Shown here: in pieces, positions 4,689 to 15,505 of the stretch
How positions within the stretch are numbered: the stretch's first letter is position 1
Layout: each line of letters opens with the position of its first letter
Source of the DNA: a virus
Lineage: Duplodnaviria; Heunggongvirae; Uroviricota; Caudoviricetes
Length of the DNA stretch: 17,267 nt
Reading direction: 5' to 3' (one strand)
Virus record (IMG/VR): IMGVR_UViG_2565956714_000008
Coordinates: 1-17,267 of that record
Notes under the pieces: model-generated
Database searches by the model: none
What the model saw: only the letters and a program-made list of their open reading frames with translations
Told to the model about the DNA's origin: nothing
Translations under genes and position numbers: made by a program

Positions 4689-4733
4689 TGGTGGCCCTTG
4701 CTGGACTTGAACCAGCGACCAAGCGATTATGAG
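4689..4733 (-). repeat. att core copy: 45-nt duplicate of the tRNA-Ile2 3' end (acceptor/T-arm to anticodon loop), marking the left boundary of the integrated element
   Basis: tggtggcccttgctggacttgaaccagcgaccaagcgattatgag matches 15430-15474 at 44 of 45 positions (single C/T difference); the sequence diverges immediately after, and the region upstream in tRNA orientation is not tRNA-like. Confidence 0.85.
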
Positions 4734-4842
4734 TTGGTTGATAACCCTTTACTTACAGATACTTAGCGATACTTTTCAATACCTTAGCATTTTTTAAAAC
4801 TACTGTATAAATACCTGTATATACCCCAAAATACTTCTTTAC

Positions 4843-4890
4843 GGTATCCTATAGGTATCCTGGAGCAGAACAAGCGATTTTCCAGGATAC
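4843..4890. promoter_or_regulatory. Putative integrase arm-type binding sites (GGTATCCT direct repeats plus inverted copy)
   Basis: ggtatcctataggtatcctgg at 4843-4863 and inverted copy tccaggatac at 4881-4890; a near-identical block ggtatcctataagtatcctgg occurs at 15367-15387 beside the other att core. Function inferred. Confidence 0.4.
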
Positions 4891-4914: not shown

Positions 4915-6336
4915 GTGAAATTATTCAGATTCTCTAAAGTAAAAATTGCAGAACTGCCAACGCCGGAACATGGACAGGTCGAATATGGTGATACGGAGGT
5001 TAACGGGCTGCGTGTCCGTGTAGGTTCGTCTGGTGTGAAAAGTTTCTGCATTTCCCGTAAGCGTAACGGAAAATTTATTCGTGCAACGCTGGGGCGTTTT
5101 CCTGATCTGAGCGTGGATAATGCCAGGGCTAAAGCTATGGAACTCCTTGGCGAAGTCGCCACAACGGGGATAAATCCGAACATAGCAAAGCGCACTAACA
5201 ACAAGGCCATGATAACGCTGAGTGAGGCGATTGACGCCTACGTAAAAAATCGTGGCCACCGCCTGAAACCCTCCACAGAAAAACAGTACCGCAGCATATT
5301 ACAGAATTATTCCGGTGACTGGATGGCCCATACCCTCGCCAGTATTTCCCGCGAACGGGTGGAACAACGGCATAAGGCCATCACTGATGGGGCTGTATGG
5401 TTCGGTGCTGATAAAACCACGTTACGGGCTGGGGTTGGTACAGGAAGCAAGGCACAGGCCGATTTATGGGCGCGTGCGCTACGTGCTGTGTGTCGGTTTG
5501 CGCATGATCATTACCGTGATGATGCGGGTAATACTCTTTTACCGGATCCGCCGACTCTGGTACTGAGCACCAAGCGCCAGTGGCACGGAACGGTAAGAAA
5601 AACGGAACGTATCCGCCTGCATGATTTTCCCCGCTGGTTTGCTGCTGTAGCTGCTGTGCGCGACCAGGGCGAACAGGAAAGGGATGATATAGCTGTTACG
5701 GTATGTGATGCCGTGGAAATGGCACTGTTTACCGGACTGAGGAAATCAGAAGTTTTTGGCCTTACGTGGGATCGCGTGAATATGGGCGGTCGCTTTTTCT
5801 GGATAGACACCACGAAAAACGGGGATCCGCTTGAACTGCCGATCACTGATACGTTGCGGAAAATGTTTCTTCGCAGGCTAAAAAACAAAGCTGCTGATGA
5901 TGTGCTGGTGTTTCCTGGCGTGAAGGGAGTGATTCAGGAGACACGGCACATCATAGACCGGATAAGCGCGGCTACCATTCCTGAGGCGAACGATGAAATG
6001 CTCTTCCCTGTCCCGTTTAAGTGGCACGACGCACGCCGGACGTTCGGAACGGTTGCTGAGCTGGTGGGCGTGGGTAATTACATCCTCAAGCGCCTGATGA
6101 ATCACCGCACTATGCGAAGTGCCGACGTAACGCAGGGGTATTTACATTTCGGTGCTGATGAACTGCTGGAGCCAGCATCACGGATAGAACGGGCAATTCT
6201 GGAACATGCCGGGCTGGTGGAGAGTAAAAAATCTATCGATGCGCAATTACTTTCCGCACTGGAGGGCATGAGTGATGATGAAAAACGTCGTTTACTATTT
6301 GCTATAGTACAAGAAAAGAATGACATATATGGGTGA
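4915..6336 (+). CDS. int: Tyrosine recombinase / integrase, P4-like with N-terminal arm-binding domain
   Basis: 473-aa ORF starting GTG 4915. The N-terminus (LPTPEHGQVEYGDTEVNGLRVRVGSSGVKSFCISRKRNGKFIRATLGRFPDLSVDNARAKAMELLGEV) fits the arm-binding domain pattern of P4-family integrases; C-terminal region has catalytic-domain signatures (LFTGLRKSEV, HDARRTFGT, TQGYLHF). Lies 180 bp inside the att repeat. Confidence 0.9.
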   Translation: MKLFRFSKVKIAELPTPEHGQVEYGDTEVNGLRVRVGSSGVKSFCISRKRNGKFIRATLGRFPDLSVDNARAKAMELLGEVATTGINPNIAKRTNNKAMITLSEAIDAYVKNRGHRLKPSTEKQYRSILQNYSGDWMAHTLASISRERVEQRHKAITDGAVWFGADKTTLRAGVGTGSKAQADLWARALRAVCRFAHDHYRDDAGNTLLPDPPTLVLSTKRQWHGTVRKTERIRLHDFPRWFAAVAAVRDQGEQERDDIAVTVCDAVEMALFTGLRKSEVFGLTWDRVNMGGRFFWIDTTKNGDPLELPITDTLRKMFLRRLKNKAADDVLVFPGVKGVIQETRHIIDRISAATIPEANDEMLFPVPFKWHDARRTFGTVAELVGVGNYILKRLMNHRTMRSADVTQGYLHFGADELLEPASRIERAILEHAGLVESKKSIDAQLLSALEGMSDDEKRRLLFAIVQEKNDIYG

Positions 6337-7045
6337 TAACAATATATCGGTCAAACAATATATTATTTATTCGGTTATGAATGATTTAATTACTGGTGGG
6401 CGAGACTCTTCAGTTTTAAACGTTCCTGTATCTTTATCCCCGAAAAACTCCACCATAGAGGCTATAAAACGCTTGATTGATGATATAAGAGATTATTTTT
6501 ATAAATCAAAGTATCCAACAAGAGAATTTCTTTTGTGTTATGGTTTAGAATTAAGAGAAATCGAGCAATATCCTATTGAATTAGCTATAAGAATGGATTC
6601 ATGTGGTTTTTTAATATTTGATAGTAAACTATCTTGTCAGGTTGTCGATACTTTAAATTCAGCAGTTGCATTGTACCATGTCGGAATGCGTAATCACGCA
6701 GACAAACTTACTAGGGTTGGTGTTGAGTTATTGCTTAATGACTTTTTTGAAGAAATTATATCGAACCATGAAAAAGATAAAAAAATAAAAGATGCTTTAT
6801 CCTTATCACAGAAAGAAAAAGCGCGCAAACCAAGAAATCATTATTACAATGAAGTTATGCACGTAATTAAACTAACATGGGAAAAGTACCCTAAAGCCAG
6901 TAAAACAGGTTTATTGAACGAGCTTTCTGTTTACTATCATGGGAAAGTAAGTAAAAACACTCTGGATAAATGGATTAAAGAATCAGGAGCACAACCACCA
7001 AGACCTGATAAATATTCTTCGTTTGAACTTGTTCACCCCCAATAG
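6320..7045 (+). CDS. Hypothetical protein, 241 aa, markedly AT-rich cargo gene; possible HTH near C-terminus
   Basis: ORF overlaps the integrase stop by 17 nt (ATG 6320; alternative ATG 6329). Base composition is visibly more AT-rich than the flanking integrase and regulator genes. No recognisable catalytic motif; C-terminal KASKTGLLNELSVYYHGKVSKNTLDKWIKE looks HTH-like. Confidence 0.55.
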   Translation: MTYMGDNNISVKQYIIYSVMNDLITGGRDSSVLNVPVSLSPKNSTIEAIKRLIDDIRDYFYKSKYPTREFLLCYGLELREIEQYPIELAIRMDSCGFLIFDSKLSCQVVDTLNSAVALYHVGMRNHADKLTRVGVELLLNDFFEEIISNHEKDKKIKDALSLSQKEKARKPRNHYYNEVMHVIKLTWEKYPKASKTGLLNELSVYYHGKVSKNTLDKWIKESGAQPPRPDKYSSFELVHPQ

Positions 7046-10841: not shown

Positions 10842-10853
10842 ACTTATGGAATA

Positions 10854-11085
10854 ACTGTTCACCACTGTTCACCCTGTCATAAATATCTTTTATATCAGTA
10901 TATTATAGGGTGAACAGTTATTTATGAACTATTCACCAAACTATTCACTGTTCACCTTTTTGGTTGTTTATTGAGCTTCAAGGGTGAACAGTGGTGAACA
11001 GTTGGTGAATAGTTTTTGTAAAACTGTTCACCCCTTAACAGTATGAATTTAAATGGAAAATATCAAAAGGTGAACAGGTGAAGGG
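10854..11085. repeat. Iteron-type replication origin: about 11 copies of ACTGTTCACC / GGTGAACAGT in both orientations within AT-rich spacers
   Basis: tgttcacc at 10856-10863, 10866-10873, 10949-10956, 11025-11032; variant tattcacc at 10930-10937; inverted ggtgaaca at 10909-10916, 10983-10990, 10993-11000, 11069-11076; variants ggtgaata at 11004-11011 and ggtgaagg at 11078-11085. Several copies are tandem with ~10-bp period. Confidence 0.7.
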
Positions 11086-13798: not shown

Positions 13799-13822
13799 TG
13801 AAATTAGGGCCCGTTCTGGCTG

Positions 13823-14020
13823 GCGGGTCCTTTCCGGCGATCCGGTAGGCTACGGGGCGTCAGGCGCGCGGGTTTTCGCTTTTTATGAAAATTTTCCGGT
13901 TTAAGGCGTTTCCGTTCTTCTTCGCCGTAACTTTATGTTTTTATTTGAAACACCCCCTGAAAAGAAAGGAAACGACAGGTGCTGAAAACGGGCTTTTTGG
14001 CCTCTGTCGTTTCCTTTCTC
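13823..14020 (+). other. Lambda-type cos site: cosQ-like segment, cosN-equivalent 12-mer (13855-13866, divergent) and cosB with R3, I1, R2 and R1 elements
   Basis: From 13867 onward the sequence (cgcgggttttcgctttttatgaaaattttccggtttaaggcgtttccgttcttcttcg ... ctgaaaagaaaggaaacgacaggtgctgaaaacgggctttttggcctctgtcgtttcctttctc) is nearly identical to my recollection of lambda left-end bases 13-170, including R3 cgtttccgttct (13907-13918), R2 agaaaggaaacg (13963-13974) and R1 cgtttcctttct (14008-14019). Upstream gcgggtcctttccggcgatccggtaggctacg parallels the lambda right end ACGGGTCCTTTCCGGTGATCCGACAGGTTACG. The 12-mer is GGGCGTCAGGCG here versus GGGCGGCGACCT in lambda. Confidence 0.8.
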
Positions 14021-14339
14021 GTTTTTGAGCAAAACTGGCTCTATACATGCTTAGAAATGCTAGGGTTTTTGCGTAATACAGGTAGTGCAGGAGATTCACC
14101 AGGGGATTATTCATATATGCTGGTAGGCGCTATGTGTTAGTGGTGAGCGAAAAACAATCAAAACCGACACCGTAAAAATAAAAATCACAAATTATCAATT
14201 AGTTGTGCCAGTGGTGATGGCGAATGAAATTTCAAAAACTAGCCTTTTTCCGCGATGCTTTCGCCCCGTGGCAGGCCACCCCACCAGGAGGACCCGCTAC
14301 AATTACGGTATCAACCTCATCACTATGGAGGCCATGACC

Positions 14340-14624
14340 ATGACCGAGACCGAAGCGCTCGAAATAATCCGCAGTATTACCGGAATCAGCCAGGCAACAG
14401 GCAAACAGGAGGCCACGCAGCCGGACAGCGTCACCGCTGAAAATTACGCGCGTGTGGTGGCTGAGGTGATGCGCCGTGACGGTATTGAGCTTAACGGCGT
14501 GGATATGCGCAACATACGAACCAGAGTCCTTGAGTTGCTGGCATACCGTCGCCGTTCTCAACAACGGAGGGAGAGCGCGAAAAATACTTACCAGTGGAAG
14601 AAGCCGGAACGACTGCGGTGGTAA
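14340..14624 (+). CDS. Hypothetical protein, 95 aa, in the position lambda Nu1 occupies relative to cosB but unrelated to Nu1
   Basis: Best-supported start ATG 14340 (GGAGG with 8-nt spacer); in-frame alternatives at 14205 (GTG), 14217, 14325 and 14334. Arg-rich C-terminus; no recognisable domain. Confidence 0.45.
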   Translation: MTETEALEIIRSITGISQATGKQEATQPDSVTAENYARVVAEVMRRDGIELNGVDMRNIRTRVLELLAYRRRSQQRRESAKNTYQWKKPERLRW

Positions 14625-14642
14625 CTTGCTGATATTCCCGAT

Positions 14643-14890
14643 AACGCAAAATTGCGTTGGCTGGTGGGTGAGTTGCAGATCTGCAACTCGACCATGAAAC
14701 TACGGAAACTACCCGTAGTTTGGGTAGTAAGAGTAACACCCAGATTTTGGGGCTTACTCGCGATACCCAAATAAAGGGTATCGGTGGAAGAAATATCGTT
14801 TCTCATATGTGAGTACCGAGGGCGGAATTCCGCCTTCGGTTACTTATTGTGCTCATGCACAGGGAGAGGCGGGTACAAATCTCTGTACCC
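14643..14890. repeat. Cluster of six inverted repeats/palindromes in a ~250-bp non-coding stretch
   Basis: AACGCAA-aa-TTGCGTT (14643-14658); perfect 20-bp palindrome GAGTTGCAGATCTGCAACTC (14670-14689); AAACTACGG/CCGTAGTTT (14697-14721) overlapping ACTACCC/GGGTAGT (14708-14728); GATACCC/GGGTATC (14762-14782); GGCGGAATTCCGCC (14821-14834); GGGTACA/TGTACCC (14871-14890). Confidence 0.45.
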
Positions 14891-15033
14891 TGACGTCTTC
14901 CGGACTGCCAGCCCCATCGTTTTTTTACGCCCGCGAAAAATAAAAATTGTTTGTATGTGAGTATTGTAGCCAGCAAAAGCTCTTTCTTTAGTGGCTTATT
15001 GTTTCTAATAGATTTTGGGAGGTAGAAATGGGA

Positions 15034-15053
15034 GGCCCAGCGAAAGCTGGGCC
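15034..15053 (-). terminator. GC hairpin with GAAA tetraloop (GGCCCAGC-gaaa-GCTGGGCC) just downstream of the small minus-strand ORF
   Basis: 8-bp perfect stem; on the minus strand it follows the stop at 15072 and is followed by a C/U-rich tract (UCCCAUUUCU), so not a textbook U-run. Confidence 0.3.
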
Positions 15054-15071
15054 GAGCTTGTTACGCTGTCA

Positions 15072-15215
15072 TTACTTCAGCATGATAACTAAAGCTATAC
15101 ATACTAGCACTACGGCTATTGGGCATAGACCTAAATTGCCAAGTGCTGCGATTAAACCTGTAACGGCAATCACACGTGCAGACAGCAGGTCTGAGCCCTT
15201 TCTTAAAGTATCCAT
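15072..15215 (-). CDS. Small hydrophobic protein, 47 aa, with a predicted C-terminal transmembrane helix
   Basis: ATG at 15215 preceded by GGAGG with 5-nt spacer; encodes MDTLRKGSDLLSARVIAVTGLIAALGNLGLCPIAVVLVCIALVIMLK. Below the ORF-track length cut-off. It is antisense to the 100-aa plus-strand ORF 15028-15330, which also has a strong ribosome-binding site, so the call is uncertain. Confidence 0.35.
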   Translation of the reverse strand: MDTLRKGSDLLSARVIAVTGLIAALGNLGLCPIAVVLVCIALVIMLK

Positions 15216-15366
15216 TGATACCTCCGTCAGGGTTTTTGCCGGTCTCTTGGAGAGTTGGGGGCAAAAGTTCAGACCCGTAGCACTTTCTTGTTCGCAGGTG
15301 AACGGCTGCTACGACCCAACTGTTCTGTAGGCATGAGCCAATTCTTACTTGTTAATACTTCTCAGA

Positions 15367-15387
15367 GGTATCCTATAAGTATCCTGG
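15367..15387. promoter_or_regulatory. Putative integrase arm-type sites (second copy of the GGTATCCT repeat block)
   Basis: ggtatcctataagtatcctgg, 43 bp from the tRNA/att core; near-identical to 4843-4863 at the other end of the element. Confidence 0.4.
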
Positions 15388-15429: not shown

Positions 15430-15505
15430 TGGTGGCCCCTGCTGGACTTGAACCAGCGACCAAGCGATTATGAGTCGCCTGCTCTAACCACTGAGCTAAA
15501 GGGCC
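15430..15505 (-). tRNA. ileY: tRNA-Ile2 (anticodon CAU, lysidine-type; anticodon-only tools would call tRNA-Met)
   Basis: Reverse complement of 15430-15505 is a 76-nt tRNA: GGCCCTTTAGCTCAGTGGTTAGAGCAGGCGACTCATAATCGCTTGGTCGCTGGTTCAAGTCCAGCAGGGGCCACCA, with 7-bp acceptor stem (one G-U pair), anticodon loop CUCAUAA and encoded CCA. It matches my memory of E. coli ileX/ileY and differs from elongator and initiator tRNA-Met. ileY chosen from the flanking gene order. Confidence 0.9.

What the first reader, a model, noticed from the sequence alone, without database searches (positions are those of the whole stretch)
14643..14890. Dense array of palindromes and mutually exclusive hairpins in the non-coding stretch after cos, including a GGGTA-centred family
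Six inverted repeats occur in about 250 bp: a 20-bp perfect palindrome containing AGATCT, a 14-bp perfect palindrome GGCGGAATTCCGCC, and three related pairs built around ..TACCC/GGGTA.. (ACTACCC/GGGTAGT, GATACCC/GGGTATC, GGGTACA/TGTACCC). At 14697-14728 two alternative stems overlap and cannot both form. GGGTATC also resembles the GGTATCC arm-type repeats at both att ends. This looks like a structured regulatory RNA or a cluster of protein-binding sites (integrase, excisionase or a late regulator) rather than random sequence.
Basis: seen in the sequence. Interest (0 to 1): 0.45.

Follow-up and report, generated by a model that had tools for sequence, protein, structure and literature searches.

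The report
Satellite tail: palindromes plus second cos
The palindrome-rich stretch is the conserved non-coding tail of an E. coli phage satellite (a PICI), built from shuffled modules also found in helper phages; the last module is a second DNA-packaging (cos) site from a different phage family, which suggests how one satellite could exploit two kinds of helper.

Summary
There are 8 perfect inverted repeats of at least 7 bp in 276 bp, against 0.15 expected by chance. It is not one structure and not an integrase or excisionase site cluster. The window holds a 10.7-kb PICI-type satellite at the ileX tRNA, and the stretch is the non-coding tail after its last gene. It splits into four modules that occur separately in other islands.

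1. 14621-14664: an IHF-consensus motif plus a small hairpin. This is one copy of a repeat unit found 1-4 times per island, with covarying stems.
2. 14665-14787: a 123-bp module (20-bp palindrome, ACTAC repeats, GATACCC hairpin). It is more conserved (96%) than the neighbouring gene (86%).
3. 14815-14840: a GC-rich, terminator-like hairpin.
4. 14862-14948: a complete SfV/SfI/ST64B-type cos site, with TGCCAGCCCC against the mapped SfI end TGCCCGCCCC. It lies 1 kb downstream of a lambda-type cos.

Several palindromes also occur, antisense, inside phage rha, roi and KilA-N regulator genes, next to IHF consensus sites. The cos identification is firm. My best guess for the other palindromes is DNA-level protein and IHF binding sites, but an RNA 3'-UTR or terminator role is not excluded. 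No Rfam family matches.

The parts
13823..14027 (+). Context: lambda-type cos (cosQ/cosN and a lambda-like cosB).
   Evidence: 92-95% identity to the cos regions of 103 lambdoid phage records; sequence read.
14340..14624 (+). Last gene of the island: a conserved 94-aa protein of unknown function (phrog_1561). The palindrome array starts at its stop codon.
   Evidence: PGAP CDS WP_021823916. phrog_1561 at E=6e-49, with no Pfam, NCBIfam or PDB hit. 988 homologues. It is the last gene in both classical and capsid-forming PICI-like islands.
14622..14634 (-). IHF-consensus motif TATCAGCAAGTTA (WATCARNNNNTTR) overlapping the stop codon. It is the conserved 5' part of the repeat unit.
   Evidence: The same oriented motif occurs 88 times in 33.7 kb of 49 unique homologous downstream regions, against 1.7 in shuffles and 9 in the other orientation.
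14643..14658 (.). Hairpin/palindrome hp1 (AACGCAA aa TTGCGTT), the variable-stem part of the repeat unit.
   Evidence: Other islands have different stems at the same place (ACGCAA, AGTGCA, GGCCCA, TTCGCC, CCTCA, CCCCC and others). 4 of its 6 pairs show changes on both sides. 19/19 nt (14644-14662) are identical to a stretch inside the rha genes of HK639, 2B8 and phiv205-1.
14665..14787 (.). Module b: a conserved 123-bp non-coding module. It holds the 20-bp palindrome (14670-14689), four ACTAC-type half-sites arranged >> << (14697-14728) and the GATACCC hairpin (14761-14783).
   Evidence: Found as a discrete block at 92-100% identity in 100+ loci, with at least 5 different left flanks and at least 4 right flanks, and sometimes duplicated. 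Mean identity is 96.1% against 86.4% for the adjacent gene, and higher in 76 of 78 loci. No match at E<=1e-5 among 50,697 phage records. At E<=10, only the 14813-14840 hairpin next to module b gave a non-chance hit; the overlap of the GATACCC hairpin with ST64B sb46 came from a direct pairwise alignment.
14754..14840 (-). Segment homologous, antisense, to codons 55-85 of the ST64B KilA-N gene sb46. It carries both the GGCGGAATTCC-type palindrome and the GATACCC palindrome in the same order.
   Evidence: local alignment of window 14840->14754 with sb46 nt 162-256. In sb46 an IHF consensus, AAATCAATCCGTTA, lies between the two palindromes.
14815..14850 (+). GC-rich 26-nt hairpin (core GGCGGAATTCCGCC) followed by UACUUAUUGU; a candidate intrinsic terminator for the island's rightward operon.
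   Evidence: Terminator-like hit. RNA dG -22.7 kcal/mol, z = -5.9. A variant of the same hairpin also occurs upstream of module b in other islands.
14862..14948 (+). Second cos site, of SfV/SfI/SfII/ST64B type. The predicted cohesive-end segment TGCCAGCCCC is at 14906-14915. The GGGTACA/TGTACCC inverted repeat (14871-14890) lies 15 nt to its left.
   Evidence: 81-91% identity over about 87 nt to 18 phage records, where this sequence lies between the HNH endonuclease gene and terS. The SfI cohesive end was mapped experimentally as 5'-TGCCCGCCCC-3' (PMC3636060). The same sequence lies between HNH and terS in the E. coli NU14 prophage.
15440..15475 (.). Context: right copy of the 36-bp att direct repeat in the 3' part of tRNA-Ile (CAU). 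The left copy is at 4699-4734. GTATCCT arm-type repeats lie at 15368 and 15379.

Best explanation
The stretch is the non-coding right-end tail of a PICI-type phage satellite. It is a mosaic of four independently exchangeable DNA modules rather than a single element.

Shown:
- The rightmost module (14862-14948, containing the GGGTACA/TGTACCC repeat) is a full-length homologue of the cos site of the SfV/SfI/ST64B phage group, whose packaging depends on an HNH endonuclease. The island therefore carries two cos sites of different phage families: a lambda-type site at 13823-14027 and this one.
- The other palindromes are conserved or covarying.
- Several of them are shared with segments inside helper-phage rha, roi and KilA-N regulator genes, where they sit next to IHF consensus sites.

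Inferred:
- cos2 lets terminases of e14/SfV-like helper prophages cut and package the island, which would widen its helper range.
- The first unit (IHF consensus plus hp1) and the palindromes of module b act on double-stranded DNA as binding sites for IHF and for dimeric DNA-binding proteins. Candidates are helper-encoded Rha/Roi/KilA-N-type proteins or an island protein such as the adjacent 94-aa protein. Together they would form a bent nucleoprotein region just upstream of cos2.
- The GC-rich hairpin at 14815-14840 ends transcription of the island's rightward operon.
For: Composite nature:
- Sub-blocks 14625-14664, 14665-14787 and 14862-14905 match separately in E. coli genomes and phages.
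- Module b has at least 5 different left flanks and at least 4 right flanks, and is duplicated in some islands.

cos2:
- 87 nt match 18 phage cos regions at 81-91% identity (alignment).
- 9 of 10 bases match the experimentally mapped SfI end.
- In phages and prophages the sequence always lies between the HNH gene and terS.
- This cos type is present in 1602 of 5426 complete E. coli genomes. Most matches (1286 records) are 80-90% identical, and the one record of that band I checked was a prophage.
- 13 of 31 island loci with this cos also have a lambda-like cosQ/cosN upstream.

Selection on the palindromes:
- Module b is 96.1% identical against 86.4% for the adjacent gene.
- Compensatory changes occur in hp1 (4 pairs) and in the GATACCC hairpin: CG->TA and AT->CG (GATCCCC/GGGGATC) in the first copy of L043.
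- The centre of the 20-bp palindrome changes AGATCT->AAATTT, keeping dyad symmetry at positions that would lie in an RNA loop. This favours recognition of duplex DNA.

IHF:
- The oriented consensus is enriched 88 against 1.7 and sits at a fixed distance, 21-23 nt, from the hairpin.

Link to phage regulator genes:
- roi: CCTCAAATTGAGG followed by AATCAATGGGTTA.
- SSU5 ant.
- HK639 rha.
- ST64B sb46.
- PMC4936722 states that the P22 rha product is detrimental to lytic growth without IHF, which regulates the rha gene, and lists phi80 Rha in the same family.
- From my own memory of Clerget & Boccard 1996 (PMID 8763934): HK022 Roi binds a site inside its own gene next to an IHF site. The citation is confirmed, but the text is not held.
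Against: - No binding, cleavage or transcript data exist. cos2 has one mismatch in the cohesive-end segment (A for C), and the island has no HNH gene or terS of its own next to it.
- The perfect GGGTACA/TGTACCC repeat is specific to the island variants. Phages have other registers there, so its role within cos is unknown.
- In my alignment the 20-bp palindrome varies only in the L003-type and in the AGATTT variants (L058 and its relatives), and the ACTAC stem B hardly at all. They therefore say little for or against any pairing model.
- hp1 stems change completely between units while the hairpin is kept. That pattern is more typical of an RNA or single-strand hairpin than of a sequence-specific operator.
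- The + strand folds 16 kcal/mol better than the - strand.
- The phage-gene matches are short (19-47 nt, E from 1e-4 to 2) and lie in coding sequence. The palindromes there could have a coding rather than a regulatory origin.
- The IHF motif is a consensus match only.
Confidence: 0.5

Rival explanations
1. RNA-level element. The array is the structured 3' untranslated region of the island's rightward operon: a series of stem-loops that stabilise the mRNA against 3' exonucleases, or that are processed into a 3'-UTR-derived small RNA, ending in an intrinsic terminator at 14815-14850.
For: - It starts at the stop codon of the last gene and lies on the transcribed strand.
- The fold z-score is -9.4, and the + strand is more stable than the - strand (-128 against -112 kcal/mol).
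- hp1 keeps a hairpin at a fixed distance from the stop codon while the stem sequence changes completely.
- Several variants carry G.U on the + strand: AAAUUACGG, GGCCCA/UGGGUU, AGAUUU.
- 14815-14840 scores as terminator-like.
Against: - There is no Rfam hit even at E<=10.
- RNAalifold gives a covariation term of only -0.45 and does not recover the simple hairpins in the 3' part.
- G.U-type and A.C-type mismatch events are about equal, so no strand is favoured.
- Only one hairpin has any U-rich tail.
- Two palindromes have zero-length loops, and a double change keeps symmetry at would-be loop positions.
- No promoter-like site lies in front of the array.
- The same palindromes occur in the opposite orientation inside phage genes.
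Confidence: 0.25
2. Non-functional debris. The array is what remains of Bro-network (Rha/Roi/KilA-N/Ant) genes once carried on the minus strand, fragmented and duplicated by recombination with helper phages. The palindromes are inherited by chance from those coding sequences.
For: - Minus-strand translations give short matches to Rha, Roi, Ant and KilA-N proteins: CNSPTSQRNFA against CSSEFSQRNFA, TEGGIPPS, PPMVEKPTAGRPA, DCGRINGLGL.
- Bro-network genes were found among the PICIs and helper prophages analysed in PMC10111431.
- The region is highly mosaic.
Against: - Only the same 35-95-nt segments are kept. Similarity never extends into the rest of the domains.
- Units are reiterated in tandem in one orientation with a fixed architecture.
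- Module b is more conserved than the adjacent protein-coding gene in 76 of 78 loci.
- Compensatory changes keep the palindromes.
Confidence: 0.12
3. One reading: integrase or excisionase (AlpA/Xis) arm-type sites, or a switch formed by the two mutually exclusive hairpins at 14697-14728.
For: - GGGTATC shares six bases with the GGTATCC att-proximal repeats.
- Two overlapping stems exist.
- The island encodes two AlpA/excisionase-type proteins.
Against: - The true arm repeats (GTATCCT) occur only at 4844, 4855, 4884 and at 15368, 15379, within about 160 bp of the att repeat.
- The array is 550-800 bp away from the att core.
- Module b occurs with unrelated att sites and arm repeats (GGTGTAGT in L002).
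- The 9-nt first repeat that forms stem A is missing in 4 of 20 distinct variants from two lineages.
Confidence: 0.04

Closest known systems
cos sites of the SfV/SfI/SfII/SfIV/ST64B group of temperate phages (10-nt cohesive end TGCCCGCCCC in SfI; HNH endonuclease, P27-family TerS and TerL packaging module)
   Same: 87 nt of contiguous similarity (81-91%) cover the conserved left block, the cohesive-end segment (9/10) and the right block up to where terS would begin.
   Different: It stands alone in a satellite, with no adjacent HNH gene or terS. The cohesive-end segment has A for C at position 5. The upstream inverted repeat is in a different register (GGGTACA/TGTACCC against GGTCA/TGACC). Cleavage has not been tested.
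EcCICFT073 cos1/cos2 (E. coli PICI with two functional cos sites; Fillol-Salom 2018, 2019)
   Same: A Gram-negative PICI with two cos sites near its right end. [quoted passage not shown]'.
   Different: Both EcCICFT073 sites are described as lambda/phi80-like in cosQ and cosN and as lacking phage cosB; they work with Rpp. Here cos1 keeps a lambda-like cosB, and I found no Rpp: the 127-aa protein matches AlpA, not RppC. cos2 belongs to a different, HNH-dependent phage family.
SaPIbov5-type cos SaPIs and P4: satellites that carry the helper's cos site
   Same: The satellite borrows the helper's packaging signal instead of encoding its own terminase (stated in the cf-PICI preprint). The SaPIbov5 helpers also need an HNH endonuclease.
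   Different: Different hosts and sequences. Those satellites are described with the cos of one helper type, not two types side by side.
Intragenic Roi-binding site plus IHF site in the roi gene of phage HK022, and IHF control of rha in phi80/P22
   Same: The island's repeat unit (palindrome, 5-10 nt, WATCARNNNNTTR) is homologous to the roi segment CCTCAAATTGAGG-ATTGTGGAAG-AATCAATGGGTTA. The IHF-rha link is cited.
   Different: In phages the segment is coding and single-copy. In islands it is non-coding, antisense to the operon, reiterated, and has many different palindromes. That Roi binds exactly this segment rests on my recollection of Clerget & Boccard 1996, not on a text I could read.
Rho-independent terminators / REP-type stabilising hairpins at operon ends
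   Same: A GC-rich hairpin with a partly U-rich tail at 14815-14850, and an array of hairpins after the last stop codon.
   Different: Only one hairpin resembles a terminator. From memory, I see no REP consensus; this was not formally tested.

Membership tests
SfV/SfI/ST64B-type cos site | 10-nt cohesive-end sequence (SfI: 5'-TGCCCGCCCC-3', mapped by end sequencing) | tested here: met
   TGCCAGCCCC at 14906-14915, a 9/10 match. Genuine phages also vary here: TGCCCGCCTC in sal3 and F1055.
SfV/SfI/ST64B-type cos site | Conserved flanking blocks on both sides of the cut (GGGGCGGGT..CCTGACGTCTTCCGGAC and ATCGTTTTTTTATACCCGCGAAAAATGAAATTT) | tested here: met
   81-91% identity over 14862-14948 to 18 phage records; alignment A5.
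SfV/SfI/ST64B-type cos site | Position between the HNH endonuclease gene and terS of the packaging module | tested here: not met
   The island has no HNH gene, terS or terL. The site stands alone, as expected for a satellite that borrows a helper's terminase.
SfV/SfI/ST64B-type cos site | Cleavage by the cognate terminase/HNH and packaging of the DNA | not testable with these tools
   Needs transduction and end-mapping experiments.
Lambda-like PICI cos (EcCICFT073 cos1/cos2 type) | cosQ and cosN resembling lambda/phi80 | tested here: not met
   This is true of the upstream cos at 13823-14027, but the site inside the finding (14862-14948) has no similarity to it.
Integrase arm-type binding sites | Same repeat motif as the att-proximal repeats, located within the att arms, and co-varying with integrase/att type | tested here: not met
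   GTATCCT repeats occur only near att. The array is 550-800 bp away. Module b occurs with other att types.
Described RNA families (Rfam 15) | Covariance-model match at or near the gathering score | tested here: not met
   Only the tRNA is found at gathering threshold. At E<=10 there is one chance-level 22-nt hit at E=5.
Intrinsic (Rho-independent) terminator | GC-rich stem-loop immediately followed by a U tract on the transcribed strand | tested here: inconclusive
   14815-14840 passes the simple scan, but the number of such hits in the region is no higher than in shuffles. dG is -22.7. The tail UACUUAUUGU is only partly U-rich and is lost in the L003-type variant. The other five hairpins have no U tract.
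IHF binding site | Consensus WATCARNNNNTTR | tested here: met
   TATCAGCAAGTTA at 14622-14634 on the - strand. The oriented motif is enriched 88 against 1.7 in homologous regions. Actual binding is not testable here.
Riboswitch-like alternative-hairpin switch | Both competing stems conserved across relatives | tested here: not met
   The 5' arm of stem A is deleted in the L003-type variants and in L120. Stem B is conserved, but only by invariant sequence.

The most novel reading that the evidence does not exclude
The tail is a panel of decoy or sensor sites. The satellite would have collected, next to IHF sites, the palindromic self-binding sites that helper phages keep inside their own rha/roi/KilA-N ('Bro-network') regulator genes. 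Helper regulators made after infection or induction would then be captured on satellite DNA. That could tell the satellite which helper is active, or titrate a helper regulator. Together with two cos sites of different families, this would make the right end a multi-helper adaptor.
Probability: 0.15. Interest if true: 0.8.

Novelty: new variant of a known kind. Interest (0 to 1): 0.5.

Why it matters
PICI satellites move virulence and defence genes between enterobacteria, and their spread depends on which helper phages can package them. The people who characterised E. coli PICIs left open why some carry two cos sites. Here the second site clearly belongs to a different packaging family: e14/SfV-like, HNH-dependent, and present in about 30% of complete E. 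coli genomes. This gives a directly testable answer, namely a wider helper range.

The rest of the tail is a reiterated 'IHF motif plus palindrome' unit and a 123-bp module more conserved than the neighbouring gene, both sharing palindromes with sites inside helper regulator genes. As far as my searches went, this has not been described. It could point to a new layer of satellite-helper recognition, or it may be only a structured operon end. Either result would improve the annotation of the right ends of these islands.

Tried and rejected
- Rfam at gathering and at E<=10: nothing relevant.
- Promoter scan: no promoter in front of the array, and the terminator count is not above chance.
- RNAalifold on 20 distinct variants: weak covariation, and a consensus that does not match the simple hairpins.
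- Strand assignment from G.U against A.C mismatches: about equal, so no call.
- H-type pseudoknot from the two overlapping stems: sterically implausible because the connecting loops would have zero length, and stem A is not conserved.
- Rpp: the 127-aa HTH protein upstream of cos1 matches AlpA (PDB 8c3t), not RppC.
- The 94-aa protein: no Pfam, NCBIfam or PDB sequence hit. The AlphaFold model is all-helical with pLDDT 69, and Foldseek against PDB gave nothing with E<1. Its role, and whether it binds the array, stays open.
- Genome-contig scan with the single protein returned only one locus. The IMG/VR scans were far more useful.
- Origin of replication: rejected for this window. The island's iterons (GGTGAACAGT) lie after the primase gene at 10850-11080, and the GCGGGTTA iterons of other islands are absent here.
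- Half-sites of the palindromes elsewhere in the island, as would be expected for an island regulator's operators: none.
- REP/BIME, integron attC, type III toxin-antitoxin repeats and retron RNA: considered from memory and dropped. There is no consensus match, no RT or toxin gene, and the repeats are not near-identical.
- Minus-strand ORFs across the array (72 and 82 aa): translations are not convincing proteins, and similarity to Rha or KilA-N is limited to 8-19 residues.
Full report
**Context**

The window is E. coli chromosome; 14400-15100 is 100% identical to strain KC-Dl-1. A 36-bp direct repeat at 4699-4734 and 15440-15475, in the 3' part of a CAU-anticodon tRNA that PGAP annotates as tRNA-Ile, bounds a 10.7-kb island.

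All island genes read rightward:
- integrase and an excisionase-type HTH protein
- an Icd-like protein
- a primase, followed by GGTGAACAGT iterons
- SSB
- a lambda E-type major capsid protein and a D-type decoration protein
- an AlpA-family protein
- a lambda-type cos
- a 94-aa protein of unknown function (phrog_1561)

This is the gene order of Gram-negative PICI satellites (PMC6092414, PMC10111431). The finding lies between the stop codon of the 94-aa gene (14624) and the att end.

Yes. With a uniform criterion (perfect stem of at least 7 bp, loop of at most 10 nt) there are 8 in 14625-14900. The mean in 2000 dinucleotide-preserving shuffles is 0.146, and none reached 8. These are 8 of the 22 such stems in the whole window. 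The region folds with z = -9.4 on either strand, as palindromic DNA must.

**It is a mosaic**

BLAST against 5426 complete E. coli genomes shows that sub-blocks of the stretch occur independently:
- 14625-14664 alone, for example in O157:H7 islands
- 14665-14787 alone, for example at the end of islands that carry a full head and terminase module (L002)
- 14862-14905 alone in phages

I fetched 80 IMG/VR loci through the 94-aa protein and 83 through a core motif of the middle block. In these loci the middle block ('module b') has at least five different left flanks and at least four right flanks, and is duplicated in some islands.

**Module 4 is a second cos site**

Window 14862-14948 matches 18 phage records at 81-91% identity: SfI, SfII, SfIV, SfV, ST64B, 118970_sal3, F1055, SKA5, vB_EcoM-720R4 and others. 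In every one of them the sequence is the intergenic region between the HNH endonuclease gene and terS. The SfI record is linearised exactly there.

The SfI paper mapped the cohesive end by sequencing virion DNA ends as 5'-TGCCCGCCCC-3' (PMC3636060). The window has TGCCAGCCCC at 14906-14915. Both conserved flanks are present, up to the point where the phage terS ribosome-binding site would begin (alignment A5).

In the phages the corresponding bases pair in other registers (GGTCA/TGACC, or GCGGG/CCUGC), so the perfect 7-bp repeat is a feature of the island variant rather than a conserved cos structure.

The island therefore has two cos sites from two packaging families.

How common is this?
- The exact arrangement with the long lambda-like cosB is rare, 4 of 5426 genomes.
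- However, 13 of 31 island loci with the SfI-type cos also have a lambda-like cosQ/cosN 0.7-1 kb upstream of the 94-aa gene.
- The SfI-type cos sequence occurs in 1602 of 5426 genomes. The large 80-90% identity class is at least partly prophage: in the one record of that class I checked (NU14) the order is lysis genes, HNH, cos, P27-family TerS, TerL, ymfR, portal. Potential helpers therefore appear to be abundant.

EcCICFT073 is known to have two functional cos sites, both described as lambda/phi80-like. [quoted passage not shown]

**Module 1 is one copy of a repeat unit**

The sequence TAACTTGCTGATA, which overlaps the stop codon, reads on the minus strand as TATCAGCAAGTTA. That is an exact match to the IHF consensus WATCARNNNNTTR.

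In the 49 unique homologous downstream regions this oriented motif occurs 88 times in 33.7 kb, against 1.7 in shuffles and 9 in the other orientation. There are up to four copies per island, often about 50-55 nt apart.

Each copy is followed by a short hairpin that typically starts 21-23 nt downstream (median 23). The stem sequence differs from unit to unit: ACGCAA, AGTGCA, GGCCCA, TTCGCC, CCTCA, CCCCC, AGCC, CTCCTCA and others. On my alignment of 20 distinct variants, 4 of the 6 hp1 pairs show changes on both sides.

**Link to phage regulator genes**

Searching phages with unit-rich sequence gave short but repeated hits, on the opposite strand, inside roi and antirepressor genes.

- In roi of phage JLK-2012, codons 43-56 (HPQIEDCGRINGLG) read CCTCAAATTGAGG-ATTGTGGAAG-AATCAATGGGTTAGG. 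That is the same 'palindrome plus IHF consensus' architecture, and it is nearly identical to units of several islands.
- The SSU5 antirepressor carries TTTTCCACCAATGGTGGAAAA at the homologous position.
- The window's own hp1 (14644-14662) is 19/19 identical to a stretch of the rha genes of HK639, 2B8 and phiv205-1, at codons for SQRNFA.
- Window 14840->14754 aligns with codons 55-85 of the ST64B KilA-N gene sb46. That gene contains CACCGAGGGCGGAATTCCACCCTCGG, then the IHF consensus AAATCAATCCGTTA, then GTGATACCCAAAATTTGGGTATCGC.

Similarity never extends to the rest of these protein domains. P22 rha is regulated by IHF and its product is detrimental to lytic growth in IHF-deficient hosts; phi80 Rha is listed in the same family (PMC4936722). 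From my own recollection of Clerget & Boccard 1996 (J Bacteriol 178:4077), HK022 Roi binds inside its own gene beside an IHF site. The reference is confirmed, but the text is not held.

**Module 2 (14665-14787)**

This block is not found in the 50,697 phage records at E<=1e-5. It is present in more than 100 island loci at 91-100% identity. Across 78 loci that have both, its mean identity to the window is 96.1%, against 86.4% for the adjacent 94-aa gene, and it is higher in 76 of 78. That argues for constraint, or for very recent exchange.

Within the block:
- The 20-bp palindrome is nearly invariant. The divergent L003-type has AAATTT for AGATCT at its centre. This is a double change that keeps dyad symmetry at positions that would be loop bases in an RNA hairpin.
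- The GATACCC hairpin shows CG->TA and AT->CG double changes, with A.G intermediates.
- The two 'mutually exclusive' stems come from four ACTAC-type half-sites arranged >> <<. The first 9-nt copy is missing in the L003-type variants and in L120, so the competition between stems is not conserved.

**Module 3 (14815-14840)**

This is the strongest hairpin (-22.7 kcal/mol, z = -5.9) and the only one with a partly U-rich tail. It is a reasonable terminator for the operon. However, a variant of the same palindrome also occurs upstream of module b in other islands and inside sb46.

**RNA or DNA?**

Points in favour of RNA:
- the position right after the stop codon
- the better fold of the + strand
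- the structure-only conservation of hp1

Points against RNA:
- no Rfam match
- an RNAalifold covariation term of only -0.45
- roughly equal G.U-type and A.C-type mismatch events
- palindromes with zero-length loops
- the symmetric double change at the centre of the 20-bp palindrome
- the oriented IHF consensus
- the presence of the same palindromes in the opposite orientation in phage genes

I therefore favour duplex-DNA protein and IHF sites, with modest confidence, and keep the RNA 3'-UTR/terminator reading as the main rival.

Integrase or excisionase sites are rejected. The real arm repeats are GTATCCT next to att, the array is 550-800 bp from the core, and module b travels with other att types.

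**Verdict**

The firm result is that the right-hand part of the finding is a second cos site of SfV/SfI/ST64B type, in an island that also has a lambda-type cos.

The remaining palindromes belong to conserved, shuffled non-coding modules: a reiterated IHF-motif-plus-hairpin unit, a 123-bp module, and a terminator-like hairpin. These share sequences with sites inside helper-phage rha, roi and KilA-N genes. Their mechanism is inferred, not shown.

I rate the finding as a new variant of a known kind (a PICI with helper-derived packaging signals), with moderate interest.

Noticed in passing
window 10850-11080: About ten copies of GGTGAACAGT/ACTGTTCACC iterons in both orientations, directly after the primase gene. 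This is the island's replication origin. From memory, the core TGTTCACC is the iteron bound by the phage P4 alpha protein.
   Followed up: partly
window 15072-15215 (- strand) and 15028-15330 (+ strand): An unannotated 47-aa hydrophobic ORF (MDTLRKGSDLLSARVIAVTGLIAALGNLGLCPIAVVLVCIALVIMLK) with a GGAGGT ribosome-binding site. It is overlapped antisense by a 100-aa ORF that also has GGAGG plus ATG. The hairpin GGCCCAGCgaaaGCTGGGCC lies at 15033-15052. There are no NCBIfam hits (Pfam not searched). It could be a small membrane peptide or a type I toxin-like pair.
   Followed up: partly
window 13823-14027 and 14040-14340: The lambda-type cos keeps a long lambda-like cosB (matched through 14027), but no terS or rpp gene follows it. 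In related islands a 180-aa small-terminase gene sits there (L003, L004). This contrasts with EcCICFT073-type PICIs, which lack phage cosB and use Rpp.
   Followed up: partly
window 14340-14624: The 94-aa protein (phrog_1561) has about 1000 homologues and is the last gene of both classical and capsid-forming PICI-like islands. It is all-helical with a basic C-terminus and has no recognisable family or fold match. It is a candidate binder of the adjacent array.
   Followed up: partly
L092, L101, L110, L118, L137, L145, L161 (about 290 nt after the module-b core motif); L003 7213-8001: Related islands are inserted inside a prophage large-terminase gene or a prophage major capsid gene. These are 'helper-embedded' PICIs, already described in PMC10111431.
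   Followed up: partly
L009, L024, L037, L043 (downstream of the 94-aa gene; sequences): Other islands carry, at the right end, an origin-like structure: GCGGGTTAT x3, an AT-rich spacer, ATAACCCGC x3. It lies immediately before an SfI-like cos variant. L043, L055 and L077 have two SfI-like cos variants in tandem, each preceded by a copy of module b.
   Followed up: no
window 15430-15505: ARAGORN and Rfam call this tRNA Met (anticodon CAT), whereas RefSeq annotates it as tRNA-Ile. That is the lysidine-modified ileX type, which is the island's integration target.
   Followed up: no
window 4915-7045 against L001: Gene coordinates left of the primase are shifted by about 70 nt relative to strain KC-Dl-1, and 13800-14960 is 99.9% rather than 100% identical. 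The window therefore comes from a very close relative, not from that exact record.
   Followed up: no
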